Shown: positions 1-16,891, counted from the stretch's first letter. The stretch: 64,000 nucleotides of DNA from a virus (IMGVR_UViG_3300042401_001499), one strand, 5' to 3'. Numbers and translations: made by a program. The notes: generated by a model from the sequence alone, not told the origin.

Positions 1-224
1 CTCAAGAGTTTGCTTTCTATTCAGATTATAAATGGATATACTCTTTAGATACTTCCAATCCAGTTGTTCACGGAATAAAAGGAATTGAATACAGAGAAGA
101 CGGACTATGGTCAAAAGAATCTCAGAAGTTATTTGAATTAATAAATCATCAGGTAGAAGATATTAATCCAATACTATATAATATCAATAAGTTCAAATGG
201 TTTACAAATGGAAGCAAAGTATAA
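1..224 (+). CDS. C-terminal fragment of an upstream gene (5-prime partial), unknown function
   Basis: Open frame from the window edge to TAA at 222-224. It is co-oriented with the downstream operon. Confidence 0.35.
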   Translation, partial: QEFAFYSDYKWIYSLDTSNPVVHGIKGIEYREDGLWSKESQKLFELINHQVEDINPILYNINKFKWFTNGSKV

Positions 225-384
225 AGTAGGACAAAAAGTTGATATTAATCGTGATAATGAAATACTAGAAGTACAGATATTCGGACATTTTAAAATGAGA
301 GAAAGAGTACTTTACAGTGTTAGATCAGAAGGAAAGTTTCACGTAATAGAAGAATCAGAAATATTAGAAAGAGTAAATGATTAG
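208..384 (+). CDS. Small hypothetical protein (58 aa), overlaps neighbours at both ends
   Basis: ATG at 208 to TAG at 382-384. Not in the ORF track (under 60 aa). The tight overlap is typical of this operon. Confidence 0.25.
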   Translation: MEAKYKVGQKVDINRDNEILEVQIFGHFKMRERVLYSVRSEGKFHVIEESEILERVND

Positions 385-904
385 ACCTTGGATAGCATTT
401 TTTAGTCAAACAGGATCAGAGATCGTAGAAGTATCAAAGCTTCTAGGAAGATGGCCTGATATGATAGTAACAAACGAAAGACCAGAACATCTTAGAAAGA
501 TTCATCCGGCTTTAGAGAACAAGCATTTAATCTTCGTAGATAATAAACCTTCAGAAGAAGAATTAGGACTAATATTAGGTCACTATAAAGAACCTTTAGT
601 AACTCTTCATGGATGGTTAAGAGTTATGCCTCCGGATATCTGTAATAGGTTTGAAATCTATAATGGACATCCAGGACTTATAACTGAACATCCAGAACTA
701 AAAGGAAAAGATCCACAACAAAAAGCTTTTGACTTAGGATTAGAATCTTCCGGATGTGTTATTCATAGAGTAACAGAAGGAGTTGATGAAGGAGAGATAC
801 TTCGAAGTAGAAAAGTTTCTATAAAAGGGTTGGAAATAGGAGAATTATTTCATATCTTACATAGTATATCAGTAAGTCTTTGGGTAGACTTCTTAAAAAA
901 TTAG
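377..904 (+). CDS. Formyltransferase-domain protein (PurN/Fmt family), candidate 7-deazaguanine-modifying formyltransferase
   Basis: NGHPGLITEHP...GCVIHRVTEGVDEGEIL matches the N10-formyl-THF transferase core (N-x-HPSLLP ... GxTxH ... DxG). It sits in an operon with QueF. Confidence 0.7.
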   Translation: MIRPWIAFFSQTGSEIVEVSKLLGRWPDMIVTNERPEHLRKIHPALENKHLIFVDNKPSEEELGLILGHYKEPLVTLHGWLRVMPPDICNRFEIYNGHPGLITEHPELKGKDPQQKAFDLGLESSGCVIHRVTEGVDEGEILRSRKVSIKGLEIGELFHILHSISVSLWVDFLKN

Positions 905-1431
905 TTATGAAAAGAATAGCATTAGTAGGAGCATCATCAGTAGGTAAGACTACGGTATATGAATTACTTAAAAGTAAATTACCTGAGTATGATTTCATAA
1001 ATGAATCAACAAGAACGGTTGGTAAATTTGGATTTCCTATTAATGAAGCAGGAACTTCTGAAACACAGCTTGCTATTTCTTCTTTCCATTTAGAAGCTCT
1101 ATTAGCTCCTAAGGATGTAATCTTAGATAGATGTTATTTGGATTTGGTAGTATACTCTACTTATATGGATAAGTTATCTACTAGCGCATATGATTACATA
1201 TTAGATACTTGGGTAAGAGTTAGGCATCAGTATACACATTTTATTTACTTCCCTATCGAATTTGCATCAGTAGACGATGGAGTAAGAAGTGTAAACGAAG
1301 AATGGAGAGAGGCAATTGATAAGCAGTTTGAAATTAACTTAAAAGCAATTAAATTTGCTGGAGGAGATTATTTAACAGTAACAGGAAGTCCTAATCAAAG
1401 AGTTGAACAAATATTAAACTACATAAAATAA
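880..1431 (+). CDS. P-loop NTPase / putative kinase
   Basis: Walker A motif ALVGASSVGKTT. Start overlaps the upstream stop. Lies between the formyltransferase and QueF. Confidence 0.55.
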   Translation: MGRLLKKLVMKRIALVGASSVGKTTVYELLKSKLPEYDFINESTRTVGKFGFPINEAGTSETQLAISSFHLEALLAPKDVILDRCYLDLVVYSTYMDKLSTSAYDYILDTWVRVRHQYTHFIYFPIEFASVDDGVRSVNEEWREAIDKQFEINLKAIKFAGGDYLTVTGSPNQRVEQILNYIK

Positions 1432-1432
1432 T

Positions 1433-2359
1433 ATGACACAAGAATTAAATCAAGCAGAAGTTGTAAAGATTGCAGGAAAGCATCTAGGACAAGTAGGTGG
1501 AGCAGGTTATAGCGATACTTATGATCCAAGCCTATTGGTAGAAATTCCACGTTACTTGAATAGAGAAGCGTATGGAATTGATGATAACAGTTTACCATTC
1601 GTGGGAGGAGATGTATGGAATGCATACGAAGTATCTGCAATTACTACAAAAGGACTTCCAGTTGTTGGAATGTTAAAGATTTGGTATCCAGCAGATTCAA
1701 AACTTCACGTAGAGTCTAAATCAATTAAATTGTATTTGAATTCATTCAATATGACTCAATTGGGAGAAACAGATCATGAATGTATCAAGTTACTAAAACA
1801 AAGAGTAAAGAAAGACTTATCTGACTTACTACAAACAAAAGTACAGGTAGAGATGTTTACCTCAGAGCATTCTCCAAGCTATGCCTTCAAAGGATATGCA
1901 CCACTAGATGCTTTAGTAGATCTAAATGCAATTGAATTTACTTCTTACCATTCAGACGCTACACAATTGGAAACAGAAGAAGTAGATGAGGATGTTGAAA
2001 TAGGAGAAATAAAAGTACAATCAAATCTTTTAAGATCAAATTGTAGAGTAACAAATCAACCAGACTGGGGTGATGTATTTATTCACATCAAGCCTAAAGC
2101 AGGAGTTGTTCCTAATCTACAATCACTAGCAAAATATATTGTAAGTCATAGACAAGTAAGTCACTTCCATGAAGAGATTTGTGAAATGATCTACATGCAC
2201 TTAAAAGAAGCTTACAATCCAGAAGAATTAATGGTAGCTTGTCTTTACACTCGTAGAGGAGGATTAGATATTAATCCAATTAGAGCTTCACATAAGAAAC
2301 TAATACCAGGATTCTTTACAGACATTACTTGTAGAATGGCTAAAACATTACGTCAATAA
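1433..2359 (+). CDS. queF: NADPH-dependent 7-cyano-7-deazaguanine (preQ0) reductase QueF, bimodular type
   Basis: QueF motif E(S/L)K(S/A)hK(L/Y)(Y/F/W) is present as ESKSIKLYL. Catalytic Cys context NCRVTNQPDWGD matches E. coli QueF (C..T.QPDWG). 308 aa, bimodular T-fold. Confidence 0.85.
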   Translation: MTQELNQAEVVKIAGKHLGQVGGAGYSDTYDPSLLVEIPRYLNREAYGIDDNSLPFVGGDVWNAYEVSAITTKGLPVVGMLKIWYPADSKLHVESKSIKLYLNSFNMTQLGETDHECIKLLKQRVKKDLSDLLQTKVQVEMFTSEHSPSYAFKGYAPLDALVDLNAIEFTSYHSDATQLETEEVDEDVEIGEIKVQSNLLRSNCRVTNQPDWGDVFIHIKPKAGVVPNLQSLAKYIVSHRQVSHFHEEICEMIYMHLKEAYNPEELMVACLYTRRGGLDINPIRASHKKLIPGFFTDITCRMAKTLRQ

Positions 2360-2640
2360 TGTCAGAAGGTAGGCAGATAACTGAAATGCGATTCAGAGTA
2401 ATTGCAAAAAGAGAAGCTCCAGGAGATAGATGGAGACTAGTAGATGATAATCATAAACCTTCTGGAGAGATCATAGAAGGTTTAGTTGAGACTTTGTCAG
2501 CTTACATGAAAAAAACCGGACACAAAGAAGGTTATCGATTGGAGCCTTTGAGAGGAACTTTGATGGCAATAGAGTGGGCAGAGCCAGAAGCAGTAATACC
2601 ACCACCTCCAAAAACTTATGATCTTTACGGGGAATTTTAA
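2359..2640 (+). CDS. Hypothetical protein (93 aa), proline-rich C-terminus
   Basis: ORF with TAATG coupling to queF. No recognisable domain. Confidence 0.4.
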   Translation: MSEGRQITEMRFRVIAKREAPGDRWRLVDDNHKPSGEIIEGLVETLSAYMKKTGHKEGYRLEPLRGTLMAIEWAEPEAVIPPPPKTYDLYGEF

Positions 2641-2644
2641 TACA

Positions 2645-2675
2645 AAAGAGTTGTTTAATCGCAACTCTTTTCTTA
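2645..2675 (+). terminator. Rho-independent terminator after the queF operon
   Basis: 9-bp stem AAAGAGTTG / CAACTCTTT with an 8-nt loop, followed by a T-rich tract. Confidence 0.55.
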
Positions 2676-2694
2676 TCTTTATAGTATATAAAAT
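2669..2694 (+). promoter_or_regulatory. Promoter-like motif, class 2 (TTTTCTTATCTTTATAGTATATAAAAT) upstream of polA
   Basis: Near-identical motif recurs at 10300-10324 upstream of another gene. Contains a TAnnTTT-like -7 element. Confidence 0.4.
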
Positions 2695-2699
2695 CAGTT

Positions 2700-5033
2700 A
2701 TGCAAATAGAAAAAAAGTACTACCATGTTGACAGTATCGAGACTGTTAATCTTCTTATCGAACATATTAATCAGTCAGAGGTTATTGCCTATGATACTGA
2801 GACAAGTGGCTTAAATGTTAGAAAAGGATCTATCGTAGGATGGTCCATATCAGGAGAAGAAGGAATAGGATTTTATCTCCCTACTCAGAAATGGAATACA
2901 GAAACAAATCAATTGGAAGAATGTAGTATTGGTGGCAAAGGAGCACATGGTATTACTAAAAAGTTACTCCCGCTGCTTAAGGGTAAGAAACTAGTAATGC
3001 ACAATGCTTCTTTTGACTGCCGTTTTACAAAGAACTATTACGGAGTATCTTTATTAGAAGATCTTTGGGTAGATACAGCTCTACTTGTTCATACAGTACA
3101 GGAAGAGGGAGCAGGTATGGGAGTATTTGGATTAAAAGCATTAGCAATCTCTATTCAGAAAGAGATTGGATTAGATGTACAAGAAGCAGCCAATAAGGAA
3201 CAAGTAGAGTTAAAAGAATCTATTAAAGCAAACGGAGGATCAACCACGAAAGACCTCTATGAAATTTTCAAAGCAGATATGGCAATTCTGTCAAAGTATG
3301 CTGCAGCCGATACAGATTTAACCCTCAGGGTTTGTAATCACTTCCTAAAAGTGTTAAAGGCGGAAGGATTAGAGAAATTCTTCTTTGAAGAAGAAGTAAT
3401 GCCTCTTTATAGAGAAGTAACTATTCCAATGGAAGAGTTAGGAGTAGCATTAGATCTTCCACTACTGGAAAAGACTAAAGAGGATATTACAAATGATTTA
3501 CAGTCAAATAAAAAGATTGTAATCGATAGCATTTTAAGTATTCCAGAGGCCAAGGAATGGGTAGTCGATACAGCACTATATACTTATCCACCTTCGCATA
3601 AAGGAAACTGGGCACAGAATTTAATTATGCTTCATTCACTTCCCCTAGAAAGAAGCGAGAAGACTAGAAAGTATTCTTTAACTAAGAAAGCTATTGACGA
3701 ATTAGATGAGAGTAACATAAAACAATTTCTACTAACAGGAGATTTATCTCTACTAGACGAAATGGAAGTTGTTAGAATCTCTATGTCAATGTGGAAGGAA
3801 GACAATGAAGGAGACTATTTGAATATACAATCAAAGAAACACTTAGGTGAGATTGCATTTAAGTATATGGGAATTAAACCTCTTACTCAGACTAAAAAAG
3901 GACAAGATCAATTCGATATGGATATGTTAGAGGAACTAGCCAAGACATATGAATGGGCAAATAATCTTAGAACATATAATAAGTTACTAAAGATTAAATC
4001 AACCTACATCGATAGATTCCTAGACGGTCAAGAAGACGGAAGATACTATTTCTATTATAAGCAGCATGGTACAGTATCAGGACGATATGGTTCAGATGCA
4101 CAACAATTACCTAAACCTAAAGAAGAAGGAGAAGATACCCCACTACTTGTAAAATATACAAATGTAGTAAGAGAGTTCTTAATTGCAGGAGAAGGAAGAA
4201 AGTTAATCGATAATGATTATACTTCTCTAGAACCTCACTGCTTTGCTTCTGTAGCAGGTGATATTAATCTTCAAGAGATCTTTAACAACGGATGGGATTT
4301 TTATTCTACTGTTGCCATAAGAACTGAGAAGCTAGATCAAGATAAAGTAAAGTATCCAAATGGTGTTTCACCTGATACTAAATCTCCTATCTTCTTAAAG
4401 AAATTAGATCCAGTAAAAAGAAATCAAGCAAAGGCTTATTCATTAGGAATTGCATACGGAATGGAAGCATACGCATTGGCTAAAACTCTAGATATATCTC
4501 AGAAAGAAGCTGATACTCTTGTAGCAGGTTACCTAGATGGTTTTCCTCAATTAAAAGAGTGGAGAGTTAATTCTAGAGAGCAAGTAAAACAACATGGGTA
4601 TATCCAAAATAAAGTAGGACGAATCAGACACTTACCAAAAGTAAAACTTATCTTTGAGAAATTTGGAGATCAAGTATTGGATTGGAGATTTAGAAAGAGT
4701 CTAGAGAATCAATACGGAAAAGAGCCTGTAATGCAGATGTATAGAGATTATCGAAATGGATTGAACAACTGCTTGAATTATCAGCTACAGTCACTAGCAG
4801 CGGCGGTTGTGAATAGAGCAGCAGTACAGATCAACAGAAAGGCAAAAGAGTTAGGAATAGATGCTAGAGTACAGGCACAGATTCATGATCAACTTATCAT
4901 AAACATTAGAGAAGATCAAGCAGAAATGTTTATGCCTTATGTAAAAGAGCTAATGGAACTAACAACACAACTTCCAGGAGTAACTCTAAAGGCACCACCA
5001 CAAATAGCAAATAACTTTGCAGAAGGTCATTAG
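2700..5033 (+). CDS. polA: DNA polymerase I (family A) with 3-prime to 5-prime exonuclease domain
   Basis: Exo I motif YDTETSGL. Motif A DYTSLEPHCFA. Motif B KRNQAKAYSLGIAYGM (R..K...G..YG). Motif C IHDQLII. Confidence 0.9.
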   Translation: MQIEKKYYHVDSIETVNLLIEHINQSEVIAYDTETSGLNVRKGSIVGWSISGEEGIGFYLPTQKWNTETNQLEECSIGGKGAHGITKKLLPLLKGKKLVMHNASFDCRFTKNYYGVSLLEDLWVDTALLVHTVQEEGAGMGVFGLKALAISIQKEIGLDVQEAANKEQVELKESIKANGGSTTKDLYEIFKADMAILSKYAAADTDLTLRVCNHFLKVLKAEGLEKFFFEEEVMPLYREVTIPMEELGVALDLPLLEKTKEDITNDLQSNKKIVIDSILSIPEAKEWVVDTALYTYPPSHKGNWAQNLIMLHSLPLERSEKTRKYSLTKKAIDELDESNIKQFLLTGDLSLLDEMEVVRISMSMWKEDNEGDYLNIQSKKHLGEIAFKYMGIKPLTQTKKGQDQFDMDMLEELAKTYEWANNLRTYNKLLKIKSTYIDRFLDGQEDGRYYFYYKQHGTVSGRYGSDAQQLPKPKEEGEDTPLLVKYTNVVREFLIAGEGRKLIDNDYTSLEPHCFASVAGDINLQEIFNNGWDFYSTVAIRTEKLDQDKVKYPNGVSPDTKSPIFLKKLDPVKRNQAKAYSLGIAYGMEAYALAKTLDISQKEADTLVAGYLDGFPQLKEWRVNSREQVKQHGYIQNKVGRIRHLPKVKLIFEKFGDQVLDWRFRKSLENQYGKEPVMQMYRDYRNGLNNCLNYQLQSLAAAVVNRAAVQINRKAKELGIDARVQAQIHDQLIINIREDQAEMFMPYVKELMELTTQLPGVTLKAPPQIANNFAEGH

Positions 5034-5096
5034 AAGTTGTTTCCTTAGATATTTATTCATATATTAATAAAATAAGTTATAAATTAAAATCAGTTT

Positions 5097-7045
<1,949 letters not shown>

Positions 7046-7068
7046 TATTAATTAAACAAATAAAAAAA

Positions 7069-7236
7069 ATGAACAAGCAAGAATTATTCGAACAAATCGA
7101 TGAATTGTATCAAAGTTTTGTAGCAAGCCATAACGGAACTACTAAAAAATCACAAGCAGGAGCAAGAAAATCTATTGGAGAGGTTAAGAAATTAATCACG
7201 GACTATAGAAAAGCTTCAACAGCAGAGAGTAAATAA
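7069..7236 (+). CDS. Small Lys-rich protein (55 aa), histone-H1-like / nucleoid-associated candidate
   Basis: ATG at 7069 to TAA at 7234-7236. Not in the track (under 60 aa). Fills an otherwise gene-free gap after groEL. Confidence 0.35.
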   Translation: MNKQELFEQIDELYQSFVASHNGTTKKSQAGARKSIGEVKKLITDYRKASTAESK

Positions 7237-7246
7237 GAAGGGACCG

Positions 7247-7294
7247 AGAGGGGAGGGGGCGTCAAAACCTCCTCACCGAAGGTGTCACGCGCAA
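7247..7294 (+). repeat. GC-rich conserved intergenic element, copy 1 (GAGGGGAGGGGGCG ... CTCACCGAAGGTGTCACGCGCAA)
   Basis: A 13-mer plus a 23-mer are identical to a second copy at 32822-32865. The GC content is strikingly above the local AT-rich background. Confidence 0.6.
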
Positions 7295-7315
7295 AATTAA
7301 CCAATTAACAAACAT

Positions 7316-7687
7316 ATGACAATTTTAACATCATTTATTCTAGTAGTAGCTATCACAGCAATAGCTCTATTCATTGCATACAATGTGCAAAAAGGTACAA
7401 AAACCTTAAAAGAATTTAAAACAGACTTCGATAACAACGAGGAAGCTCAAGAGTTAGTACAGTTATCTAAAGAATTGTATAACAAAGACCTACGTCCAGT
7501 TACAGCAAAGAAAGCACCTAAGAAAGAAAAGGTAGCAGAAATAACACCAGAGGTTGTAGAGAAAGTAGTAGAGATTGCCCAAGTAACACCAGACACTACA
7601 ACAGTAAACGTTGAAGCAGTAGTGGAATCAACCAAGCCTAAGAAAAAAAGAAAGTATTATCCAAAAGCTCCTAAGGGGAAGGCATAA
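7316..7687 (+). CDS. Membrane-anchored Lys-rich protein
   Basis: N-terminal transmembrane helix (ILTSFILVVAITAIALFIAY) and a KKxPKK-rich C-terminus. Confidence 0.45.
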   Translation: MTILTSFILVVAITAIALFIAYNVQKGTKTLKEFKTDFDNNEEAQELVQLSKELYNKDLRPVTAKKAPKKEKVAEITPEVVEKVVEIAQVTPDTTTVNVEAVVESTKPKKKRKYYPKAPKGKA

Positions 7688-7941
7688 TGTCAGATTCAAG
7701 AGCCAAGTACGAGGAATTAAGAGAGAAGCCTACCTTTGTTGAAAATACAGAACAGCAAAGAAGCGTGGCCATTATTGTAGAAATTCTACAGGCAAGTGAT
7801 CATACCTCTCTCACCAAGCACCTTTTATCAAAAGTGTTAGAAGTATCAAAGGAGGGTCCAAACCTTTCACCGGCCACTGTCTTTCAAATAGCAGCAGATG
7901 CTACAAAGGTAGATGAATTATGCAATGCAAAACAAAACTAA
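7687..7941 (+). CDS. Hypothetical protein
   Basis: ORF with ATGA-type coupling to its neighbours. Confidence 0.4.
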   Translation: MSDSRAKYEELREKPTFVENTEQQRSVAIIVEILQASDHTSLTKHLLSKVLEVSKEGPNLSPATVFQIAADATKVDELCNAKQN

Positions 7942-8179
7942 AATGGAACAACAACCAAGAATGAATCTATCGATTGATCAAACACTTCCGGTAGAATGCG
8001 AAAAATGTGGACACACCTTCTTTGAAGAAGCACTTCATATTAGAAAAGCATCGGGAATACTTACAGGTACAGGTCAAACAACCTACATGCCTATTCCGGT
8101 ATTTGCGTGCAAGGCCTGCGGCCATGTCAACACAGAATTTCTTCCAAAGGAATTAAAAGGGTTGAATTCTGAGGAATAA
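7913..8179 (+). CDS. Double zinc-ribbon protein
   Basis: Motifs CEKCGH ... CKACGH. Confidence 0.45.
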   Translation: MNYAMQNKTKMEQQPRMNLSIDQTLPVECEKCGHTFFEEALHIRKASGILTGTGQTTYMPIPVFACKACGHVNTEFLPKELKGLNSEE

Positions 8180-8200
8180 ACCAGACTTTACTTAAACTTC

Positions 8201-8228
8201 AAAGAGGCCTCGTGCCTCTTTTTTTTGT
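8201..8228 (+). terminator. Rho-independent terminator
   Basis: Stem AGAGGC / GCCTCT with loop CTCGT, followed by TTTTTTTT. Confidence 0.6.
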
Positions 8229-8560
8229 GCTATTTATATCAAAGAGTTACTATGAAAATTTTGTTACTACCAATTAGTTACGTCCTAACTAACTTAAAAA
8301 AATATTTTATGGGATTTTTCAGTATCTTTAAAAAATCAAATGATTACAATGAAAAGGTTGTAATTGGATTCATGTCATTCATGGTGATGGTAATTGCCAT
8401 TGCAGTAGACCTTGTAACAGGTTACATGGGTAAAGCTTTAGAATTAAACGAGTACATCTTTGATGCATTCATGTACATCACATTAGGTTCATTCCTTCCA
8501 GATGTATTGGAGAAATTTGCAGCAATGAAAAACGGAGGTAAATCAAACAACGAAGAATAA
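8225..8560 (+). CDS. Small membrane protein, holin candidate
   Basis: Two predicted transmembrane segments. Sits immediately upstream of the endolysin. Confidence 0.4.
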   Translation: MCYLYQRVTMKILLLPISYVLTNLKKYFMGFFSIFKKSNDYNEKVVIGFMSFMVMVIAIAVDLVTGYMGKALELNEYIFDAFMYITLGSFLPDVLEKFAAMKNGGKSNNEE

Positions 8561-8570
8561 AAATTAGATT

Positions 8571-9182
8571 ATGAGCTTAAAAAGTTTACAAGAAAAAGTA
8601 GGAGTAACAGCCGATGGTGCTTTTGGTCCAGGAACAATGAAAAAAGCAATGGAGTTTTATAAATTAACTCCAGTAAGAGCAGCACATTTCTTTGCACAAA
8701 CAGCACACGAAACAGGAGGGTTTAAAGCATTTGCAGAAAATCTAAACTACTCAGGAGATGGATTAAAAGGTATCTTTGGAAAATACTTTCCAGGTAACTT
8801 AAATGAACTATACGCTCGTAATCCTGAAAAGATTGCCAATAGAGTATACGGATCAAGAATGGGTAATGGAGCAGAAGCTTCAGGAGATGGATACAAGTTC
8901 AGAGGAAGAGGAGCTCTTCAATTGACAGGAAAAGAAAACTACAAAGCATTTTCAGATTATTTGAAAAAGCCAGAAATCATGACCAATCCAGATCTAGTAG
9001 CAACTACTTACTCTTTTGAATCAGCAATGTTCTTTTTTGATAAAAATAAATTATGGTCAATATGTGACCAAGGAGTGAACGATGCTTCAATCCTAGCTCT
9101 TACAAAAAGAATTAACGGCGGTACTCATGGTTTAGCAGATCGTTCTGAGAAAACTAAAAAATATTACGAATACGTTAAATAG
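8571..9182 (+). CDS. Endolysin: N-terminal peptidoglycan-binding domain plus GH19 (chitinase-like lysozyme) catalytic domain
   Basis: PG_binding-like motif ADGAFGPGTMKKA. GH19 motifs FFAQTAHETGGF and RGRGALQLTGKENY. Confidence 0.8.
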   Translation: MSLKSLQEKVGVTADGAFGPGTMKKAMEFYKLTPVRAAHFFAQTAHETGGFKAFAENLNYSGDGLKGIFGKYFPGNLNELYARNPEKIANRVYGSRMGNGAEASGDGYKFRGRGALQLTGKENYKAFSDYLKKPEIMTNPDLVATTYSFESAMFFFDKNKLWSICDQGVNDASILALTKRINGGTHGLADRSEKTKKYYEYVK

Positions 9183-9193
9183 GTAAATATAAG

Positions 9194-9619
9194 ATGAAAA
9201 CTTCACTATTAATCACATTATCATTGACAACAGCATTAGCATTTATTGGTACATATTTTATGCACCTAACAGCAGATAACATCGAACAATACCTTTCAGT
9301 AGGGTTGGTTGTCTTTGCTGATGGCTTCTTTGGTATATGGGCAGGAGTTAAGAGAGAAGGTTTTCAGACTTTTAAAGCATTAAGCGTATTAAAAACATTT
9401 GGCTTTTGGGTAGTAATGCTATCAGCTATCTTATCAATAGAAAAAGGATTTACTGGAACAGCTTGGTTAAGCGAGACTATTATGGCTCCCTTCTTAGTAT
9501 TCCAGTTAATTTCTATTTTAAAAAATGCCTCAATGGTAGGTTTAGTAAAAAATGAATTAGCAGTTCAGATATTGGACAGACTAGATAAACACAAAGGAGA
9601 AAGAGATGTTACAGAATAA
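9194..9619 (+). CDS. Holin-like multi-pass membrane protein
   Basis: Three to four hydrophobic helices and a charged C-terminus. Directly follows the endolysin. Confidence 0.45.
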   Translation: MKTSLLITLSLTTALAFIGTYFMHLTADNIEQYLSVGLVVFADGFFGIWAGVKREGFQTFKALSVLKTFGFWVVMLSAILSIEKGFTGTAWLSETIMAPFLVFQLISILKNASMVGLVKNELAVQILDRLDKHKGERDVTE

Positions 9620-9959
9620 ACAAAACTTATTACTGGTTATAGTAGTTGTATTAATTGGTTATAATATTTTCAATACAAATAGCATCAGAACAGATGTAAA
9701 AGGGTACAAAGCTGAAATAGAATTATTACAAACTAAAGTAGATTCAGCTAAGACAGTAAACAAACAAATCGATACTAAAATCGATTCAGTAAAAGAAAAG
9801 GTAGTTTCTATTTCAAAAGAAATACATCACATAGACAATACAATAACAATCGTAAAAAATCAAACAAATGAAAAAGCTGCTAATGCTGGTAAGTTTTCTA
9901 ATGTTGAGCTTGAGCAGTTTTTCGCAAGCAGATACAACAAAAGTCTTACTCCCAACTAA
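9606..9959 (+). CDS. Spanin-like protein (N-terminal TM plus coiled coil; i-spanin candidate)
   Basis: Single N-terminal transmembrane segment followed by a heptad-rich periplasmic domain. Confidence 0.35.
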   Translation: MLQNKQNLLLVIVVVLIGYNIFNTNSIRTDVKGYKAEIELLQTKVDSAKTVNKQIDTKIDSVKEKVVSISKEIHHIDNTITIVKNQTNEKAANAGKFSNVELEQFFASRYNKSLTPN

Positions 9960-10263
9960 AATTGCTAGACAAGTTGCAAAAGACCTTATTAGGTATGATG
10001 GTTGCAAACAAGAACTAAAACTTACTCAAGAAAAAATTATCAAGTTAGAAGAAAGAGAAGTACAAAAAGATACTATCATCAAGCTTCTAAACGATAAGGA
10101 TGAGAACAATAAATACATCATTCATCAGAATGAACTTCAAATTGGACAGTACGAACATATGACTGACGATTTACAAAAAGAGTTAAAGGCCTCTAGAACA
10201 AAAACCTTCCTCTATAAAGTAGGAACATTTGTCGGATTGGCATTAGCACTCTACCTCTACTAA
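9868..10263 (+). CDS. Overlapping, out-of-frame ORF with signal peptide and C-terminal TM (o-/u-spanin-like candidate)
   Basis: Overlaps the upstream ORF by 92 nt in another frame, reminiscent of Rz/Rz1 architecture. No lipobox Cys is seen, so the call is tentative. Confidence 0.3.
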   Translation: MKKLLMLVSFLMLSLSSFSQADTTKVLLPTKIARQVAKDLIRYDGCKQELKLTQEKIIKLEEREVQKDTIIKLLNDKDENNKYIIHQNELQIGQYEHMTDDLQKELKASRTKTFLYKVGTFVGLALALYLY

Positions 10264-10276
10264 AATAATTAAATTA

Positions 10277-10302
10277 AGGCTTGCTTTTGCAGGCCTTTTT
10301 TC
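10277..10302 (+). terminator. Rho-independent terminator after the lysis cassette
   Basis: GGCTTGC-TTTT-GCAGGCC hairpin plus a T-run. Confidence 0.55.
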
Positions 10303-10324
10303 TTATATTATAGTTATATAAAAT
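10300..10324 (+). promoter_or_regulatory. Promoter-like motif, class 2 (TTCTTATATTATAGTTATATAAAAT)
   Basis: Same motif as upstream of polA (2669-2694). Confidence 0.4.
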
Positions 10325-10329
10325 ACGTT

Positions 10330-10620
10330 ATGACAAAGAACAGTGATGTAAAACCTTTAGTAAAAGAGAAGGTTGTAAACAAAATGGTCGACCATCCTCA
10401 ACACTACGGAGGTAAGGGAAACAAATACGAAGCCATAAAAGTAATTGAAGCATGGGACTTAGGTTTCTGTTTAGGAAATACTGTGAAGTATATCTCCAGA
10501 GCAGGAAAGAAAGATAACATAGTTCAAGAATTAGAAAAAGCTCTTTGGTATTTAAAAAGAGAAATCAAAACACTAAAGAAAAATGGCCAAGAAAATACTC
10601 AAGCAGGTAAGTCTAATTAA
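10330..10620 (+). CDS. DUF3310-like small phage protein
   Basis: Pattern HPQHYGG ... KYEAIKVIEAW ... GNTVKYISRAGKK ... LEKALWYL is typical of DUF3310. Confidence 0.4.
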   Translation: MTKNSDVKPLVKEKVVNKMVDHPQHYGGKGNKYEAIKVIEAWDLGFCLGNTVKYISRAGKKDNIVQELEKALWYLKREIKTLKKNGQENTQAGKSN

Positions 10621-11524
10621 GGACTTCTGCAATCCAGTTATAGATTATAACATCAGCAAATCAATATCGTATAGTCAAACTCTAGCATACAATACTTGTC
10701 CGCACCAATGGGCATTAAAATATGTTAAAGGACTGCAGGAGTATAAGCCCTCCATTCATACAGTCTTTGGAACAGCCTTACACGAAGTTGTACAGGAATG
10801 GCTAACAGAACTCTATGAAGGGACTGTAAAGAAAGCAACTGAGATGGATCTTGGAGCACTTCTACATGAAAAGCTCTTTAGTATTTATGCTCAAGAAAAA
10901 GATAAGTACGGAAAACATTTCTCTACCTCTGAGCAGTTATCTGAGTTTCATAATGATGGAGTTGAAATATTGAATTACGTACGTAAGAAACGCTCTATTT
11001 ACTTCGGTACCAAGTATTATAAGTTGGTAGGAGTAGAGATTCCTTTGATACATCAAATAGCTGAGAATATTTTCTTCAAAGGATTTATTGATATTGTTCT
11101 CTATGATGAGCAGGATGACAGGTATATCATTTTAGATATCAAAACATCAACCTCAGGATGGAATGATTATGCAAAGAAGGATGATAAAAAGCTAGCACAA
11201 TTACTTCTCTATAAAGAATTCCTAGCAAGACAATTTGATATAGATGTTGATAAGGTAGATGTAAAGTACTTCATCGTAAAGAGAAAAGTACCTGCCGATC
11301 CAGAATATCCAGCCATGGGTAGAAGAGTTCAAGAGTTTGTACCACCTTCAGGAAAAATTAAAAGAGGACAAGCAACCACAGCTCTTACAAAATTTATTGA
11401 CGATGCTTTCGATTCACATGGAAAGTATATTGATAAGGAATATGATAAGAAGCCATCCAAGTCCAATTGTATGTTCTGTGATTTTAAAGGTACAGAGCAT
11501 TGCCATGCAGGTGTTTTGATATAA
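10583..11524 (+). CDS. PD-(D/E)xK nuclease with C-terminal Cys cluster (Cas4 / RecB-family exonuclease-like)
   Basis: GFIDIV ... ILDIKTS core. C-terminal CMFCDFKGTEHCHAG looks like an Fe-S-type Cys cluster. Confidence 0.65.
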   Translation: MAKKILKQVSLIKDFCNPVIDYNISKSISYSQTLAYNTCPHQWALKYVKGLQEYKPSIHTVFGTALHEVVQEWLTELYEGTVKKATEMDLGALLHEKLFSIYAQEKDKYGKHFSTSEQLSEFHNDGVEILNYVRKKRSIYFGTKYYKLVGVEIPLIHQIAENIFFKGFIDIVLYDEQDDRYIILDIKTSTSGWNDYAKKDDKKLAQLLLYKEFLARQFDIDVDKVDVKYFIVKRKVPADPEYPAMGRRVQEFVPPSGKIKRGQATTALTKFIDDAFDSHGKYIDKEYDKKPSKSNCMFCDFKGTEHCHAGVLI

Positions 11525-11559
11525 GGGTATATTTATATATACATATAATTATATAAACA

Positions 11560-11742
11560 ATGAACACAAAAAAATTAACATCGGTTAAGGTAGAAGAGGA
11601 TCTTCTACAAGAATTTAAAGAGCAATGCGTAAGAGATAAATTTTCTTTACAGAAGCTTGTAGACAGAGCAATTTTTCTTTATATTACAGAAGAGAGCTTT
11701 AAACAAAAATTACGCACACAAACAGATATTAAATTAAAATAG
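11560..11742 (+). CDS. Small hypothetical protein (possible ribbon-helix-helix)
   Basis: 60-aa ORF. Weak call. Confidence 0.3.
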   Translation: MNTKKLTSVKVEEDLLQEFKEQCVRDKFSLQKLVDRAIFLYITEESFKQKLRTQTDIKLK

Positions 11743-11746
11743 TTAC

Positions 11747-13189
11747 ATGAAAGAAAAATTTCGTTATGTTAAGAAAGAAGATCGTAAAAAGATACTTCTG
11801 TTATGCGATGATATTAGGATGCATTCCGGTATCGCAACGATGGCTAGAGAGATTGTTGTAGGAACATCTCATCACTTTAACTGGATCAATCTAGGAGCTG
11901 CAATTAACCACCCCGAAGCAGGAAAAGGATTTGACATCTCAGGAGAGGTTAATAGGTTAACAGGGCTAGAAGATTCAGATGTAAAGGTATTGCCTAACAA
12001 TGGTTATGGAGATGCTATGCAAATTAGAGCTTTAATTGCACAAGAAAAGCCAGATGCTATTTTTATCTTTACAGATCCAAGGTACTGGGTATGGTTATTT
12101 GAAATAGAAAGAGAGATTAGAAATGAAATTCCTTTGATGTACTTAAACATTTGGGATGACTATCCAGCTCCTCTTTATAACAAACCGTACTACGAGTCAT
12201 GTGATTTGTTAATGGCAATCTCAAAACAAACTAAAAATATTAATGAAATAGTTTTAGGAGAAGCAGTTGAGAATAAGATTTTAAAATATGTTCCTCATGG
12301 AATAAATGAAGAGCACTTCTTTCCAATGACCTCAGTAGATCAACTTGAGACTTTAGGTCAATTTAAAAAAGACTTATTTCAAGGAAAGGATATCGAATTC
12401 GTAGCATTCTTCAATTCAAGAAACATCAGAAGAAAATCTCCAGGAGATGTAATTCTATCTTATAGAATGTTCTGTGATTTAATCGGAGAAGAGAAAGCTA
12501 AGAAATGTGCTTTAGTAATGCACACACAGGCTGTAGATGAAAACGGTACAGACCTTTATGCAGTAAGAGAAGCAATTTGTGATGAGAGTTATGTAAATGT
12601 ATTCTTCTCACAAGAGAGATTAGATACTCCACAAATTAATTTACTTTATAACATAGCTGATGTAGGATTGCTTATCACTTCAAATGAAGGATGGGGATTA
12701 TCTCTAACTGAGACTATGATGGCAGGTAAAATGATCATAGCCAACGTAACAGGCGGTATGCAAGATCAAATGAGATTTACAGATGAGAATGGTGAGTGGA
12801 TTAACTTCACTCCTGACTTCCCTTCTAACCATAGAGGTACTTATAAAGAGCATGGAGAGTGGGCAGTGCCTGTCTATCCTTCAAACATCTCAATGGTAGG
12901 TTCAGTTCCAACTCCATACATCTTCGATGATAGGTGTGCACCAGAAGACGTAGCTAAAGCTTTAGAAGAGGTTTACAACATGGGGAAAGAAGAGAGAGAT
13001 AGAAGAGGATTATTAGCTAGAGAATGGGTAACATCAGATGAATCAGGAATGTCAGCACGTCAAATGTGTACAAACGTTATTGATGCAATGGATGAGACAT
13101 TTGAAAAGTTTACTCCAAGATCTAGATTTGACCTATATAAAGTAACAGACAGACCAAAAAAATATATCACACATAAATTAATATACTAG
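11747..13189 (+). CDS. Glycosyltransferase, GT-B fold (GT4-like)
   Basis: ITSNEGWGLSLTETMMAGKMIIA matches the GT4 E-x7-E region (EGFGLP..EAMA.G.PVIA). Confidence 0.6.
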   Translation: MKEKFRYVKKEDRKKILLLCDDIRMHSGIATMAREIVVGTSHHFNWINLGAAINHPEAGKGFDISGEVNRLTGLEDSDVKVLPNNGYGDAMQIRALIAQEKPDAIFIFTDPRYWVWLFEIEREIRNEIPLMYLNIWDDYPAPLYNKPYYESCDLLMAISKQTKNINEIVLGEAVENKILKYVPHGINEEHFFPMTSVDQLETLGQFKKDLFQGKDIEFVAFFNSRNIRRKSPGDVILSYRMFCDLIGEEKAKKCALVMHTQAVDENGTDLYAVREAICDESYVNVFFSQERLDTPQINLLYNIADVGLLITSNEGWGLSLTETMMAGKMIIANVTGGMQDQMRFTDENGEWINFTPDFPSNHRGTYKEHGEWAVPVYPSNISMVGSVPTPYIFDDRCAPEDVAKALEEVYNMGKEERDRRGLLAREWVTSDESGMSARQMCTNVIDAMDETFEKFTPRSRFDLYKVTDRPKKYITHKLIY

Positions 13190-13191
13190 TT

Positions 13192-14936: not shown

Positions 14937-14954
14937 ATTTCTTATCTTAATAGG

Positions 14955-15572: not shown

Positions 15573-15579
15573 ATTAGTT

Positions 15580-16890: not shown

Positions 16891-16891
16891 T

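What the first reader, a model, noticed from the sequence alone, without database searches (positions are those of the whole stretch)
1..2640. QueF plus PurN-like formyltransferase operon: edge of a phage 7-deazaguanine DNA-hypermodification system
ORF 1433-2359 carries both QueF hallmarks: the ESKSIKLYL substrate-binding motif and the NCRVTNQPDWG catalytic-Cys context. QueF reduces preQ0 to preQ1. A phage has no tRNA-queuosine of its own to make, so the likely role is a deoxy-7-deazaguanine genomic modification (dPreQ1 class). The tightly coupled PurN-like formyltransferase (377-904) could formylate the preQ1 aminomethyl group. A formyl-dPreQ1 modification has, to my recollection, been described for a few Bacteroidetes phages; I cannot verify that here. 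The P-loop NTPase between them and the upstream partial ORFs probably belong to the same operon. The DpdA transglycosylase and QueC/QueD/QueE/FolE genes are not in the window and are expected upstream of coordinate 1.
Basis: partly seen in the sequence, partly recalled or inferred. Interest (0 to 1): 0.75.

Follow-up and report, generated by a model that had tools for sequence, protein, structure and literature searches.

The report
Phage formyl-preQ1 DNA modification genes
The first 2.7 kb of the window is the downstream half of a phage gene cluster that most likely replaces guanine in the phage's DNA with a formylated 7-deazaguanine; the same system was described in 2023 in a close relative, so it is a correct call but not a new one.

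Summary
Window 1433-2359 encodes a two-domain QueF with every catalytic residue intact. Window 377-904 encodes a short PurN-like formyltransferase with the Asn-His-Asp triad. Window 907-1431 (not 880) encodes a small P-loop kinase-like protein. Window 1-224 is the 3' end of a DpdA3 transglycosylase gene, including its putative nucleophile Asp.

A metagenome contig 100% identical to window 1-12359 shows the true upstream DNA. It carries QueD, QueE, FolE, a phosphoribosyltransferase, a MazG-like hydrolase and the rest of DpdA3.

[quoted passage not shown] Cui, Hutinet et al. (NAR 2023) showed that its DNA has all G replaced by formyl-dPreQ1. They named its formyltransferase DpdN, which is predicted but not validated. 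This window is therefore a new member of a known kind.

One thing goes beyond the paper. The P-loop gene follows DpdA3 in most related viral contigs. It also follows DpdA3 in Campylobacter dADG phages, which have neither QueF nor DpdN. It may therefore be a DpdA3 partner, and it bears on whether complete G replacement happens before or after replication. QueC was not verified on this phage's own genome.

The parts
1..224 (+). 3' end of the dpdA3 gene (DNA-guanine transglycosylase, DpdA3 subfamily). It covers residues 192-264 plus the stop codon, in frame 3. The codon at 48-50 is Asp207, the putative catalytic nucleophile.
   Evidence: Translation. The full gene lies on the identical contig at L002:7998-8792. 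It is 87% identical to immuto DpdA. Asp207 is conserved in at least 95% of 40 homologues (invariant in the 13). It aligns with the SIDS Asp of Salmonella DpdA 7UI4, described as nucleophile Asp256 in PMC10164549. That numbering match assumes a 20-residue tag on the crystallised chain.
208..384 (+). 58-aa ORF of unknown function. It overlaps dpdA3 by 17 nt and dpdN by 8 nt.
   Evidence: ORF. It is called as a gene on identical contigs. No Pfam, NCBIfam or PHROG match. Homologues occur only in close relatives (L001-L026), so it is not part of the conserved core.
377..904 (+). dpdN: a PurN-like, folate-dependent formyltransferase. It is predicted to formylate the aminomethyl nitrogen of preQ1 or dPreQ1.
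   Evidence: PF00551 at 7e-13. PurN is the best PDB match. N96, H98 and D137 are conserved. It is 90.9% identical to immuto gp067, which is DpdN. DpdA3 lies upstream in 36 of 36 informative viral loci and QueF lies nearby in 32 of 33.
907..1431 (+). P-loop protein of 174 aa, resembling a nucleoside or nucleotide kinase (Pfam AAA_28). It is an accessory partner of the module and its substrate is unknown.
   Evidence: AAA_28 at 4.6e-13. The conserved motifs are Walker A GxxxxGKT, DRC...D..VY and DDGxRS. The PDB matches are weak and roughly equal for thymidylate kinase, deoxynucleoside kinase and the kinase domain of NadR. The AlphaFold model has pLDDT 74, and its best TM-score is 0.69, to NadR. 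The gene is present in 26 of 33 DpdN-seeded loci and 37 of 43 DpdA3-seeded loci. It lies directly downstream of DpdA3 in Campylobacter CP220-type phages.
1433..2359 (+). [quoted passage not shown] It makes preQ1.
   Evidence: Pfam QueF_N and QueF. TIGR03138 at 9.2e-79. Full-length alignment with V. cholerae QueF, with both motifs conserved. The catalytic residues are conserved across 37 homologues. It is 80.7% identical to immuto QueF.
2359..2640 (+). 93-aa ORF of unknown function and the last gene of the unit. Its start overlaps the queF stop (TAATG).
   Evidence: ORF. It is called on identical contigs. No family match. It occurs only in some close relatives.
2644..2681 (+). Terminator-like hairpin with an 11-bp stem (AAAAGAGTTGT...GCAACTCTTTT), followed by a T-rich tail. 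It lies between the 93-aa ORF and the DNA polymerase gene.
   Evidence: The region had 3 such sites against 2.1 expected, so this is a consensus match only. Sequence.

Best explanation
Window 1-2681 is the downstream half of a phage operon for 7-deazaguanine hypermodification of the phage's own DNA. [quoted passage not shown]

The proposed pathway runs as follows.
- Upstream genes FolE, QueD and QueE, plus QueC further upstream, convert GTP to preQ0.
- QueF (1433-2359) reduces the nitrile of preQ0 with NADPH to give preQ1.
- DpdA3 (gene end at 1-224) exchanges guanine for the deazaguanine base.
- DpdN (377-904) transfers a formyl group from a formyl-folate onto the exocyclic aminomethyl nitrogen. 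It acts either on free preQ1 before insertion or on dPreQ1 after it.
- The end product is 2'-deoxy-7-(formylamino)methyl-7-deazaguanosine in place of dG, which blocks restriction enzymes whose sites contain G.

Shown here:
- gene identities, catalytic residues and gene order;
- the identity of the upstream DNA;
- conserved DpdA3-DpdN-QueF linkage in dozens of viral contigs.

Taken from the literature: the chemistry of the DNA in the sister phage.

Inferred:
- that this phage's DNA carries fdPreQ1;
- that DpdN is the formylase;
- the order of the insertion and formylation steps.

The P-loop protein (907-1431) is an accessory component tied to DpdA3 and its role is undetermined.
For: Catalytic residues are conserved across homologues down to about 36% identity.

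The true upstream DNA:
- L002 is 100% identical to window 1-12359.
- It carries QueD, QueE, FolE, a phosphoribosyltransferase, a MazG-like protein and DpdA3.

Synteny with immuto:
- The window shares 81-88% nucleotide identity with immuto_2-6A.
- That phage has QueC, QueD, QueE, FolE, DpdA, the formyltransferase, the kinase and QueF in the same order.

Literature (PMC10516641):
- Immuto DNA has no detectable dG or dPreQ1, and fdPreQ1 in its place.
- It resists restriction enzymes whose sites contain G.
- gp067 is named DpdN.

Gene linkage:
- Among 40 distinct DpdN loci from IMG/VR, DpdA3 lies upstream in 36 of 36 informative cases and QueF lies next to it in 32 of 33.
- Among 43 informative loci seeded with DpdA3, QueF is present in 43 and DpdN in 41.
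- Distant loci show compact clusters in the order QueD-QueE-FolE-DpdA3-DpdN-(P-loop)-QueF-QueC.
Against: - No chemistry exists for this phage, and DpdN has never been assayed. The 2023 paper calls it 'proposed' and 'potential'.
- QueC was not found on this phage's own contigs, because the fetched flanks stop about 8 kb short of where immuto has it.
- Sequence support for placing DpdA3 in the TGT/DpdA superfamily is weak (E = 0.25 to 7UI4; Pfam TGT in 2 of 13 members).
- The loci used for the linkage counts were found with peptide patterns derived from this clade, so they sample the clade rather than all formyltransferases.
Confidence: 0.85

Rival explanations
1. Same enzymes, different level of action. 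In DpdA3 phages the deazaguanine enters DNA before replication.
- A (d)GTP pyrophosphohydrolase (the MazG-like gene next to DpdA3) makes dGMP or GMP.
- DpdA3 swaps the base on the nucleotide.
- The P-loop kinase (907-1431) re-phosphorylates the modified nucleotide.
- The adjacent family-A DNA polymerase incorporates it.
- DpdN formylates at the base or nucleotide level.

This would parallel the T4 hydroxymethyl-dCTP route.
For: The P-loop protein looks like a true kinase rather than a generic ATPase.
- Its DRC...D..VY motif aligns with the DRF...S..AYQ motif of thymidylate kinase.
- It has a DDGxR lid-like motif shared with the NadR kinase domain, and conserved arginines.

The P-loop gene follows DpdA3 in three settings:
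- in 37 of 43 informative DpdA3 loci;
- in loci that lack DpdN (L259, L298);
- about 60 nt downstream of DpdA3 in ten Campylobacter dADG phages that have no QueF or DpdN.

MazG lies within 1.5 kb upstream of DpdA3 in 31 of 56 loci.

Literature points:
- Replacement is complete in every DpdA3 phage tested, and DpdA3 could not be made to work in the authors' E. coli model system (PMC10516641).
- A modified-dGTP route was once proposed for Campylobacter phages (PMC6884629).
Against: - No enzyme of the TGT superfamily is known to act on free nucleotides (from memory).
- The authors of the field conclude that all of these modifications are post-replicative.
- The kinase is missing from 6 of 43 DpdA3 loci that still have DpdN and QueF.
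- MazG is missing from the compact distant clusters.
- Similar P-loop genes occur in Streptomyces phages with no deazaguanine gene in the 16.5-kb stretch inspected.
- Phage genomes often carry nucleotide kinases for general dNTP supply.
Confidence: 0.15
2. The P-loop protein is an ATP-hydrolysing helper of DpdA3 on DNA. It would be a functional analogue of bacterial DpdB, whose ATPase activity is required for DpdA to insert preQ0. It would account for the high efficiency of DpdA3. The rest of the pathway stays as in the best explanation (post-replicative).
For: The adjacency to DpdA3 holds across phages with different end products. A precedent exists: DpdB's ATPase is necessary for DpdA-catalysed insertion (PMC10164549 abstract).
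Against: - No sequence match to DpdB surfaced in any search run here; the two were not compared directly.
- The conserved motifs are those of small-molecule kinases.
- The protein is small (174 aa) with no recognisable DNA-binding domain.
- It is absent from some DpdA3 clusters.
Confidence: 0.2
3. The 377-904 protein is not a deazaguanine enzyme. It would be either a true PurN that boosts purine supply, or a sugar N-formyltransferase working with the aminotransferase and glycosyltransferases of the sugar island at 11.7-26.2 kb. QueF and the other genes would then yield plain dPreQ1.
For: - PurN is the best family match.
- Sugar N-formyltransferases (PseJ, VioF, 6V2T) also match at 5e-7 to 1e-6.
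- The window carries a DegT-type aminotransferase and many glycosyltransferases.
- Cyanophages carry PurN-like auxiliary genes.
Against: - It scores far below the PurN equivalog cut-off (51.5 against 150.1 bits).
- At 175 aa it is shorter than the PurN chains it matches (184-229 aa) and the matched sugar N-formyltransferase chains (192-267 aa).
- It is always next to DpdA3 and QueF even where no sugar island is near.
- It has a clade-specific invariant LKGKDPQ loop.
- Immuto DNA contains fdPreQ1 and no dPreQ1, which requires a formylase.
Confidence: 0.04
4. The queuosine-pathway genes serve tRNA, by boosting queuosine in host or phage tRNAs, and not DNA.
For: This was the older reading of phage Q-pathway genes. 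It is still suggested for phages without a DpdA (PMC6884629).
Against: - A DpdA3 gene sits in the same operon.
- No gene in the window or in the upstream contig matched Pfam TGT in the proteins scanned here or in the precomputed gene table.
- The window has no tRNA genes.
- The sister phage's DNA is fully modified.
Confidence: 0.02

Closest known systems
[quoted passage not shown]
   Same: The gene order is the same: DpdA3, small ORF, DpdN, P-loop, QueF, small ORF, PolA, GroES/GroEL. Protein identities are DpdA3 87%, DpdN 91%, P-loop 86% and QueF 81%. Nucleotide identity is 81-88%.
   Different: This is a different, uncultured phage known from aquatic metagenome contigs. Immuto has an extra 186-aa gene (gp71) between the 93-aa ORF homologue and PolA. 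The sugar island downstream has different content. There are no DNA chemistry data for this phage.
mdPreQ1 systems (DpdM methyltransferase) of Cellulophaga phage phiSM and Vibrio phages phi-Grn1, phi-ST2 and VH7D
   Same: QueF makes preQ1, and a second enzyme then decorates the aminomethyl nitrogen. These Vibrio phages carry QueF proteins about 44% identical to the window's.
   Different: The added group is methyl rather than formyl. The enzyme has a different fold. Only a small fraction of G is modified, and only a few percent of dPreQ1 is methylated (Table 1 quoted), whereas fdPreQ1 replacement is complete.
dADG system of Campylobacter phage CP220 and other Firehammervirus phages (DpdA3)
   Same: DpdA3 is 42% identical (E 2e-60). 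It is followed directly by a P-loop AAA_28 gene 32-34% identical to window 907-1431. Replacement of G is complete.
   Different: There is no QueF and no DpdN. The end product is 7-amido-7-deazaguanine. The biosynthetic genes are scattered rather than in one operon.
Bacterial Dpd modification module (DpdA, DpdB, DpdC; Salmonella Montevideo; PMC10164549)
   Same: A TGT-like transglycosylase swaps G for a 7-deazaguanine in DNA. The Asp of the DpdA3 'SLDTS' motif aligns with the DpdA nucleophile. An NTP-using partner protein is needed there (DpdB) and may exist here (the P-loop protein).
   Different: - DpdA was crystallised as a 436-residue chain, whereas DpdA3 is a 264-aa minimal protein.
- No sequence match to DpdB surfaced in any search run here, and the two were not compared directly.
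- Modification is below 0.1% of G in bacteria, whereas it is complete here.
- The bacterial system belongs to a restriction-modification system, not to a phage counter-defence.
PurN (glycinamide ribonucleotide transformylase, PF00551)
   Same: The N-terminal fold family is the same. The Asn-His-Asp triad and the HPS/HPG motif are shared. The formyl-folate donor is probably shared too (inference).
   Different: - DpdN is only 175 aa.
- It scores 51.5 bits against an equivalog cut-off of 150.1.
- It has a clade-specific invariant LKGKDPQ loop where PurN has a different loop.
- Its genomic context is deazaguanine genes rather than purine genes.
Two-domain QueF (E. coli YqcD, V. cholerae QueF; TIGR03138)
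   Same: The architecture is the same (QueF_N plus QueF). The QueF motif is present. Cys, Asp and His-Glu are conserved.
   Different: Identity is about 45% at best to Vibrio phage QueF proteins. The protein scores slightly below the NCBIfam equivalog cut-off. It has a longer, acidic inter-domain linker. Its product is destined for DNA rather than tRNA.

Membership tests
QueF, two-domain type (NADPH-dependent preQ0 reductase) | QueF_N plus QueF domain architecture | tested here: met
   PF14819 at 8.9e-34 and PF14489 at 6.5e-21, both above their gathering scores.
QueF, two-domain type (NADPH-dependent preQ0 reductase) | QueF motif E(S/L)K(S/A)hK(L/Y)(Y/F/W) | tested here: met
   ESKSIKLY at residues 94-101 aligns with ESKSFKLY of 3BP1. 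It is conserved in at least 95% of 37 homologues.
QueF, two-domain type (NADPH-dependent preQ0 reductase) | Catalytic Cys (thioimide former), with Asp seven residues later and the His-Glu pair | tested here: met
   C204, D211 and H246-E247 align with the matching residues of V. cholerae QueF. All are conserved in at least 95% of homologues.
QueF, two-domain type (NADPH-dependent preQ0 reductase) | Score at or above the NCBIfam equivalog cut-off (TIGR03138) | tested here: not met
   The score is 264.9 bits against a cut-off of 293.45. This is a near miss typical of a divergent phage copy. It is a threshold, not a mechanistic feature.
QueF, two-domain type (NADPH-dependent preQ0 reductase) | Reduction of preQ0 to preQ1 with NADPH | not testable with these tools
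   This needs an enzyme assay.
DpdN (preQ1/dPreQ1 formyltransferase, group 1 of Cui et al. 2023) | PF00551 formyltransferase fold with the Asn-His-Asp triad | tested here: met
   PF00551 at 7e-13. N96, H98 and D137 align with the PurN triad. They are conserved in at least 95% of 41 sequences and invariant in the 16.
DpdN (preQ1/dPreQ1 formyltransferase, group 1 of Cui et al. 2023) | Close relation to the founding member, immuto gp067 | tested here: met
   90.9% identity over all 175 residues.
DpdN (preQ1/dPreQ1 formyltransferase, group 1 of Cui et al. 2023) | Co-encoded with a DpdA and the full FolE-to-QueF pathway | tested here: inconclusive
   DpdA3, FolE, QueD, QueE and QueF are on the identical contig. 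QueC is not within reach on this phage's contigs. QueC is present in immuto and on four IMG/VR contigs that also hold a DpdN 89-93% identical to the window's (contig names shared).
DpdN (preQ1/dPreQ1 formyltransferase, group 1 of Cui et al. 2023) | Formylation of the 7-aminomethyl nitrogen; fdPreQ1 in virion DNA | not testable with these tools
   This is shown only for immuto DNA by LC-MS/MS. The enzyme itself has not been assayed anywhere.
PurN proper (GAR transformylase) | Score at or above the TIGR00639 equivalog cut-off | tested here: not met
   The score is 51.5 bits against 150.1, and only residues 53-150 match. The protein is not filed as PurN.
DpdA3 (phage DNA-guanine transglycosylase subfamily) | Close relation to named DpdA3 members (immuto, Campylobacter CP220 group) | tested here: met
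   87% identity to immuto DpdA. 42% identity, E 2e-60, to CP220 gp056. The hhalign probability is 100%.
DpdA3 (phage DNA-guanine transglycosylase subfamily) | Homology to the TGT/DpdA TIM barrel, with conserved active-site aspartates | tested here: inconclusive
   The best PDB match is DpdA 7UI4, but at E = 0.25 and over only 49 residues. Pfam TGT (0.0034) and DUF6610 (0.00065) hit a few members only. D53, D84 and D207 are invariant. D207 aligns with the DpdA nucleophile.
DpdA3 (phage DNA-guanine transglycosylase subfamily) | Exchange of guanine for a 7-deazaguanine in DNA; complete replacement | not testable with these tools
   No DpdA3 has been reconstituted. The authors report failed attempts in E. 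coli.
AAA_28 / NadR-type ribosylnicotinamide kinase-like P-loop proteins | Pfam AAA_28 above its gathering score, with Walker A | tested here: met
   50.1 bits against 27. GASSVGKT is present. All 15 diverse homologues match AAA_28.
Thymidylate kinase (the name used in the immuto annotation) | Pfam Thymidylate_kin above its gathering score | tested here: not met
   16.6 bits against 27. The PDB profile matches to TMPK, dNK and NadR are similarly weak (about 1e-5). The name 'thymidylate kinase' is not justified.

The most novel reading that the evidence does not exclude
The small P-loop kinase-like gene (907-1431) is a conserved partner of DpdA3 rather than of QueF or DpdN. Its presence would mean that DpdA3 phages, the only 7-deazaguanine phages with complete G replacement, build the modified base into a nucleotide and polymerise it. 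The route would be MazG-type dGTP hydrolysis, base exchange on the mononucleotide by DpdA3, re-phosphorylation by this kinase, and incorporation by the adjacent PolA. [quoted passage not shown] A weaker version of the idea is that the P-loop protein is a DpdB-like energy-supplying helper of DpdA3 acting on DNA.
Probability: 0.15. Interest if true: 0.75.

Novelty: new member of a known kind. Interest (0 to 1): 0.3.

Why it matters
As a finding, this is a correct reading of a system published in 2023 for a sister phage. Its main value is as an annotation. It shows that fdPreQ1-type modules (DpdA3, DpdN, QueF) are common in aquatic viral metagenomes, with dozens of distinct contigs down to 36% DpdN identity and the same gene order.

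Two open questions remain. The first is whether DpdN acts on the free base, on a nucleotide or on DNA. The second is how DpdA3 phages reach complete replacement of G.

The P-loop kinase-like gene sits next to DpdA3 in phages that make different end products. The 2023 paper does not use the word 'kinase' at all (0 occurrences). The gene is therefore a concrete candidate to test, and it could reopen the question of modification before or after replication.

Tried and rejected
(1) QueC on this phage's own genome was not found.
- A metagenome scan with immuto QueC gave 80 loci, none overlapping L002 at high identity.
- An IMG/VR scan gave the same result.
- A protein search and a cluster look-up found no QueC on a 157,994-bp contig, the longest contig that carries this phage's DpdN and QueF.
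- One cluster member (P0341) has 87,509 bp as its longest-contig length. Close DpdN and P-loop relatives (P0009, P0025) show the same length. This is circumstantial only.

(2) Net charge and pI as a hint to DNA binding by DpdN were uninformative. DpdA3 itself is acidic (pI 5.3), so the measure says nothing.

(3) The AlphaFold model of the P-loop protein had pLDDT 74.
- Foldseek against the PDB gave only weak matches.
- The top match by E-value was an unrelated hydrolase.
- The best TM-scores were NadR 0.69 and thymidylate kinase 0.65.
- This confirms the kinase fold but does not settle the substrate.

(4) Rfam at gathering thresholds found nothing in the window or in L002, so there is no preQ1 riboswitch.

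(5) The sigma-70 promoter scan found 17 sites against 21.4 expected from shuffles, which is not informative. Bacteroidetes promoters are also not covered by this consensus.

(6) The 'NadR' annotation over a DpdA-like gene in Bacillus phage BSTP12 is not a DpdA-kinase fusion.
- The gene encodes 262 aa that are DpdA-like only.
- The gene just upstream is a P-loop protein with a weak match to this family (hhalign probability 82%, E 1e-5). I give this little weight.

(7) CP220 gp055 (HD domain plus AAA_33) is not a member of this P-loop family.

(8) The supplements of the 2023 paper are not held, so its list of DpdN homologues could not be compared with this contig.

Full report
**What is in the sequence**

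The + strand of window 1-2700 carries a tightly packed run of genes (sequence).
- Frame 3 of positions 3-224 is an open reading frame that enters from upstream.
- A 58-aa ORF follows at 208-384.
- A 175-aa ORF lies at 377-904.
- A P-loop ORF ends at 1431.
- A 308-aa ORF lies at 1433-2359.
- A 93-aa ORF lies at 2359-2640.
- A terminator-like hairpin follows at 2644-2671.
- After a 59-nt gap comes a family-A DNA polymerase gene at 2700-5033.

Neighbouring genes overlap by up to 17 nt or are separated by at most 2 nt.

The 308-aa protein matches Pfam QueF_N (8.9e-34) and QueF (6.5e-21). It matches NCBIfam TIGR03138 at 9.2e-79, at 264.9 bits, just under the equivalog cut-off of 293.45. It aligns from residue 24 to 289 with the solved Vibrio cholerae QueF. 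ESKSIKLYLNS lies opposite ESKSFKLYLNS, and SNCRVTNQPDWG lies opposite SNCLITNQPDWG.

I collected 37 distinct homologues from viral contigs, 36-96% identical to the window's protein. In at least 95% of them the QueF motif, Cys204, Asp211 and His246-Glu247 are conserved.

The 175-aa protein matches PF00551 at 7e-13. A profile of 16 diverse homologues hits PurN structures at 2e-15 to 1e-10. That is well ahead of PurU, of the sugar N-formyltransferases and of Fmt. Asn96, His98 and Asp137 align with the PurN catalytic triad. They are conserved in at least 95% of 41 distinct sequences and invariant in the 16-sequence alignment.

The protein is not a true PurN. It scores 51.5 bits against a cut-off of 150.1, and only residues 53-150 match.

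The P-loop gene starts at the ATG at 907, not at the TTG at 880. That start agrees with the gene calls on identical contigs and with immuto gp68. The protein matches Pfam AAA_28 at 4.6e-13.

**What lies upstream of coordinate 1**

The exact QueF protein is encoded on many metagenome contigs. One of them, JGI Ga0453159_0000460 (locus L002), is 100% identical to window 1-12359. Its first 8568 bases are therefore the true upstream DNA. In order, they encode:
- thymidylate synthase;
- PTPS/QueD;
- a radical-SAM protein (QueE);
- an Endonuclease_NS protein;
- a small phosphoribosyltransferase;
- GTP cyclohydrolase I (FolE);
- a DUF4494 protein;
- a MazG-like pyrophosphohydrolase;
- a 65-aa ORF;
- a 264-aa protein whose last 73 codons are window 3-221, with the stop codon at 222-224.

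Its sequence link to the TGT/DpdA superfamily is weak. The best PDB match is Salmonella DpdA 7UI4, at E = 0.25. Pfam TGT and DUF6610 hit only a few members.

The short match that does exist places the invariant Asp207 of 'SLDTSNP' opposite the 'SIDS' aspartate of DpdA. Allowing for a 20-residue tag on the crystallised chain, that aspartate is the nucleophile Asp256 described in PMC10164549. The tag length is my assumption. The codon for Asp207 is window 48-50, so the transglycosylase gene is partly inside the window.

**Closest cultured relative and the literature**

Window 1-8000 matches only the three immuto phages, four records in all (160 kb; host Flavobacterium sp. LMO8; Baltic Sea). Identity averages 85.6%, and individual blocks are 81-88% identical.

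The immuto annotation shows the same gene order. In addition it shows QueC about 16 kb upstream, and QueD, QueE, FolE and DpdA.

Cui, Hutinet and colleagues (NAR 2023, PMC10516641) report the following for immuto_2-6A:
- Its DNA resists restriction enzymes whose sites contain G.
- Its DNA has no detectable dG or dPreQ1.
[quoted passage not shown] This was confirmed against a synthetic standard.
- The phage encodes a DpdA of a new subfamily, DpdA3.
- The PF00551 protein gp067 is the 'proposed' or 'potential' preQ1/dPreQ1 formyltransferase, named DpdN. It was predicted from context and has not been assayed.

The window's protein is 90.9% identical to gp067.

**Independent support from gene linkage**

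A scan of IMG/VR with the formyltransferase returned 55 loci with 36-94% identity. I removed duplicates and the window's own phage, then considered only loci with enough flanking DNA.
- DpdA3 lies upstream in 36 of 36 loci.
- QueF lies next to DpdN in 32 of 33 loci.
- The P-loop gene is present in 26 of 33 loci.

The distant loci often hold the whole pathway in one compact cluster, in the order QueD-QueE-FolE-DpdA3-DpdN-(P-loop)-QueF-QueC.

A second scan was seeded with a DpdA3 alignment. Among 43 informative loci it gave QueF in 43, DpdN in 41 and the P-loop gene in 37.

Both scans used peptide patterns from this clade. They show that the clade is consistently linked. They do not show that all such formyltransferases are.

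The two small ORFs (58 aa and 93 aa) occur only in close relatives and match no family. I treat them as lineage-specific passengers of unknown function.

**Most likely mechanism**

- GTP is converted to preQ0 by FolE, QueD, QueE and QueC.
- QueF reduces preQ0 to preQ1 with NADPH.
- DpdA3 exchanges guanine for the deazaguanine.
- DpdN transfers a formyl group from a formyl-folate onto the aminomethyl nitrogen.

The gene identities, catalytic residues, upstream genes and linkage are shown here. The DNA chemistry comes from the sister phage. That this phage's DNA carries fdPreQ1, and that DpdN is the formylase, are inferences.

Whether formylation comes before or after insertion is unknown. Immuto DNA shows no residual dPreQ1. 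By contrast, the DpdM methylase modifies only a few percent of dPreQ1 (Table 1 quoted). This fits formylation before insertion, but it does not prove it.

**The P-loop protein**

This is the one component the 2023 paper does not discuss: the word 'kinase' does not occur in it.

An alignment of 15 homologues that are 27-86% identical to the window's protein shows these motifs:
- Walker A;
- a conserved 'TR';
- a conserved Gln;
- a 'DRC..D..VY' motif;
- a 'DDGxRS' motif;
- a C-terminal Arg.

A profile search of the PDB gives weak and roughly equal matches, from 9e-6 to 4e-4, to thymidylate kinase, deoxynucleoside kinases and the kinase domain of NadR. The DRC motif aligns with DRF of thymidylate kinase. 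The DDGxR motif aligns with IDDGFR of NadR.

An AlphaFold model (pLDDT 74) confirms the kinase fold without fixing the substrate. Its best TM-score is 0.69, to NadR. The label 'thymidylate kinase' in the immuto record is not supported, at 16.6 bits against a cut-off of 27.

Among cultured phages, homologues occur in immuto, in Campylobacter CP220-type phages, in many Streptomyces phages and in one Rhodococcus phage.

In ten Campylobacter phages (CP220, CPt10, CP21, CP20, IBB_35, WX1, F379, CJLB-12, CJLB-13, CJLB-14) the P-loop gene lies about 60 nt downstream of a gene 42% identical to DpdA3 (E 2e-60). These phages make dADG and have neither QueF nor DpdN. They count as a single lineage.

Viral contigs L259 and L298 also have DpdA3, the P-loop gene and QueF with no DpdN.

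The P-loop gene therefore tracks DpdA3, not the formylation or reduction step. It is missing from six informative DpdA3 loci. It also occurs in Streptomyces phages with no deazaguanine gene in the 16.5-kb stretch inspected. It is not an obligate part of the system.

**Readings of the P-loop gene**

Three readings remain open.
1. It is a general nucleotide kinase that happens to sit here.
2. It is an ATP-using helper of DpdA3. This would be analogous in role to DpdB, whose ATPase is required for bacterial DpdA (PMC10164549).
3. It re-phosphorylates a modified mononucleotide in a pre-replicative route: MazG-type hydrolysis of dGTP, base exchange by DpdA3, the kinase step, then the adjacent polymerase.

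A modified-dGTP route was proposed earlier for Campylobacter phages (cited in PMC6884629). It was set aside once DpdA3 was found.

Four facts keep the third reading alive:
- Replacement is complete in all DpdA3 phages tested.
- DpdA3 failed to work in the authors' E. coli model.
- An ADG nucleoside was seen in infected cells (all three).
- The P-loop protein has kinase motifs.

I rate the third reading as unlikely but not excluded.

**Rivals for the formyltransferase**

A genuine PurN, or a sugar N-formyltransferase serving the sugar island at 11.7-26.2 kb, are both possible in principle. The invariable DpdA3/QueF context, the short length, the low PurN score and the need for a formylase in immuto all argue against them. 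A tRNA-queuosine role is made unlikely by three things:
- the DpdA3 gene sits in the same operon;
- no gene scanned here, or listed in the precomputed gene table, matches Pfam TGT;
- the window has no tRNA genes.

**What could not be settled**

QueC was not found on this phage's own contigs, because the fetched flanks stop short. It is present in immuto. It is also present on four IMG/VR contigs that carry a DpdN 89-93% identical to the window's, as shown by contig names shared. Rfam finds no riboswitch or other known RNA in the window or in the upstream contig.

**Verdict**

The system is an orthologue of a published one, so this is a new member of a known kind and of modest interest. The most useful by-product is the conserved pairing of DpdA3 with the P-loop gene.

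Noticed in passing
window 11747-26155 (+): A 14.4-kb glycosylation and nucleotide-sugar island. It holds two GT1 and three GT2 glycosyltransferases, a DegT-type aminotransferase, an NDP-sugar 4,6-dehydratase and an epimerase. It also holds a 584-aa TPP-dependent enzyme, a DmpF-like acylating acetaldehyde dehydrogenase, a DmpG/HMGL-like aldolase and an FkbM methyltransferase. Immuto has a sugar island at the same place with different annotated content and no TPP or DmpFG genes annotated. From memory, a TPP enzyme together with an aldolase-dehydrogenase pair suggests synthesis of a branched or acylated sugar. Its target (virion, host surface or DNA) is unknown.
   Followed up: partly
L223 (Campylobacter phage CP220, NC_027997.1) 8180-9540; also for nine other phages: CP220 gp056, annotated 'hypothetical protein', is a DpdA3 homologue (42% identity). 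It is followed directly by gp057, a homologue of the window's P-loop protein. The same pair is adjacent in ten Campylobacter dADG phages. The pairing is independent of QueF and DpdN, and the 2023 paper does not mention a kinase.
   Followed up: yes
L259 5278-8326 and L298 5935-8424 (IMG/VR contigs): These loci have DpdA3, the P-loop gene and QueF in a row with no DpdN. They are probably phages that stop at dPreQ1, with a DpdA3-type (possibly complete) replacement. No such cultured phage is listed in the papers read here.
   Followed up: partly
L002 7282-7806 and 5843-6238 (upstream of window coordinate 1): A MazG-like nucleotide pyrophosphohydrolase lies about 190 nt upstream of DpdA3, with a 65-aa ORF between them. 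A truncated phosphoribosyltransferase (131 aa) lies next to FolE. MazG is within 1.5 kb upstream of DpdA3 in 31 of 56 related loci but is absent from the compact distant clusters. Possible roles are dGTP depletion or guanine salvage. Neither was tested.
   Followed up: partly
window 5097-7045 (+): A phage-encoded GroES (101 aa) and GroEL (546 aa) pair lies directly after the DNA polymerase, as in immuto gp73 and gp74.
   Followed up: no
window 2700-5033 (+): A family-A DNA polymerase with a 3'-5' exonuclease domain lies immediately downstream of the modification operon. PMC11348598 reports that immuto-type phages carry this 'regular' polymerase plus a second, divergent PolA (divPolA1) elsewhere in the genome. 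A polymerase that copies DNA in which G is fully replaced may have adapted to it.
   Followed up: no
window 1-64000: All real genes of at least 100 aa are on the + strand. The + strand has a strong positive GC skew (0.1-0.29) from position 1 to about 47 kb. The skew falls to about zero or slightly negative between 48 and 62 kb, where the structural genes lie. There are no tRNA genes in the window, although immuto has four tRNAs about 14 kb upstream of its DpdA. There are no Rfam matches.
   Followed up: no
L225 (Bacillus phage BSTP12, MW354678.1) 4336-5684: A DpdA-like gene, mis-annotated as 'NadR', sits in a Gat-QueC/QueD/FolE cluster just before a DNA polymerase I gene. It is preceded by a 187-aa P-loop protein with a weak full-length match to the window's P-loop family (hhalign probability 82%, E 1e-5). 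This may be a third lineage with the same pairing. The evidence is weak.
   Followed up: partly
L224 (Streptomyces phage Paradiddles, MF347637.1) 7228-8615: Homologues of the P-loop protein (about 29% identity) occur in 89 Streptomyces phage records. In Paradiddles the gene lies next to an FkbM-type methyltransferase, with a MazG-like gene about 5 kb upstream. No deazaguanine genes are annotated in the 16.5-kb stretch inspected. This argues that the family is not restricted to DpdA3 systems.
   Followed up: partly
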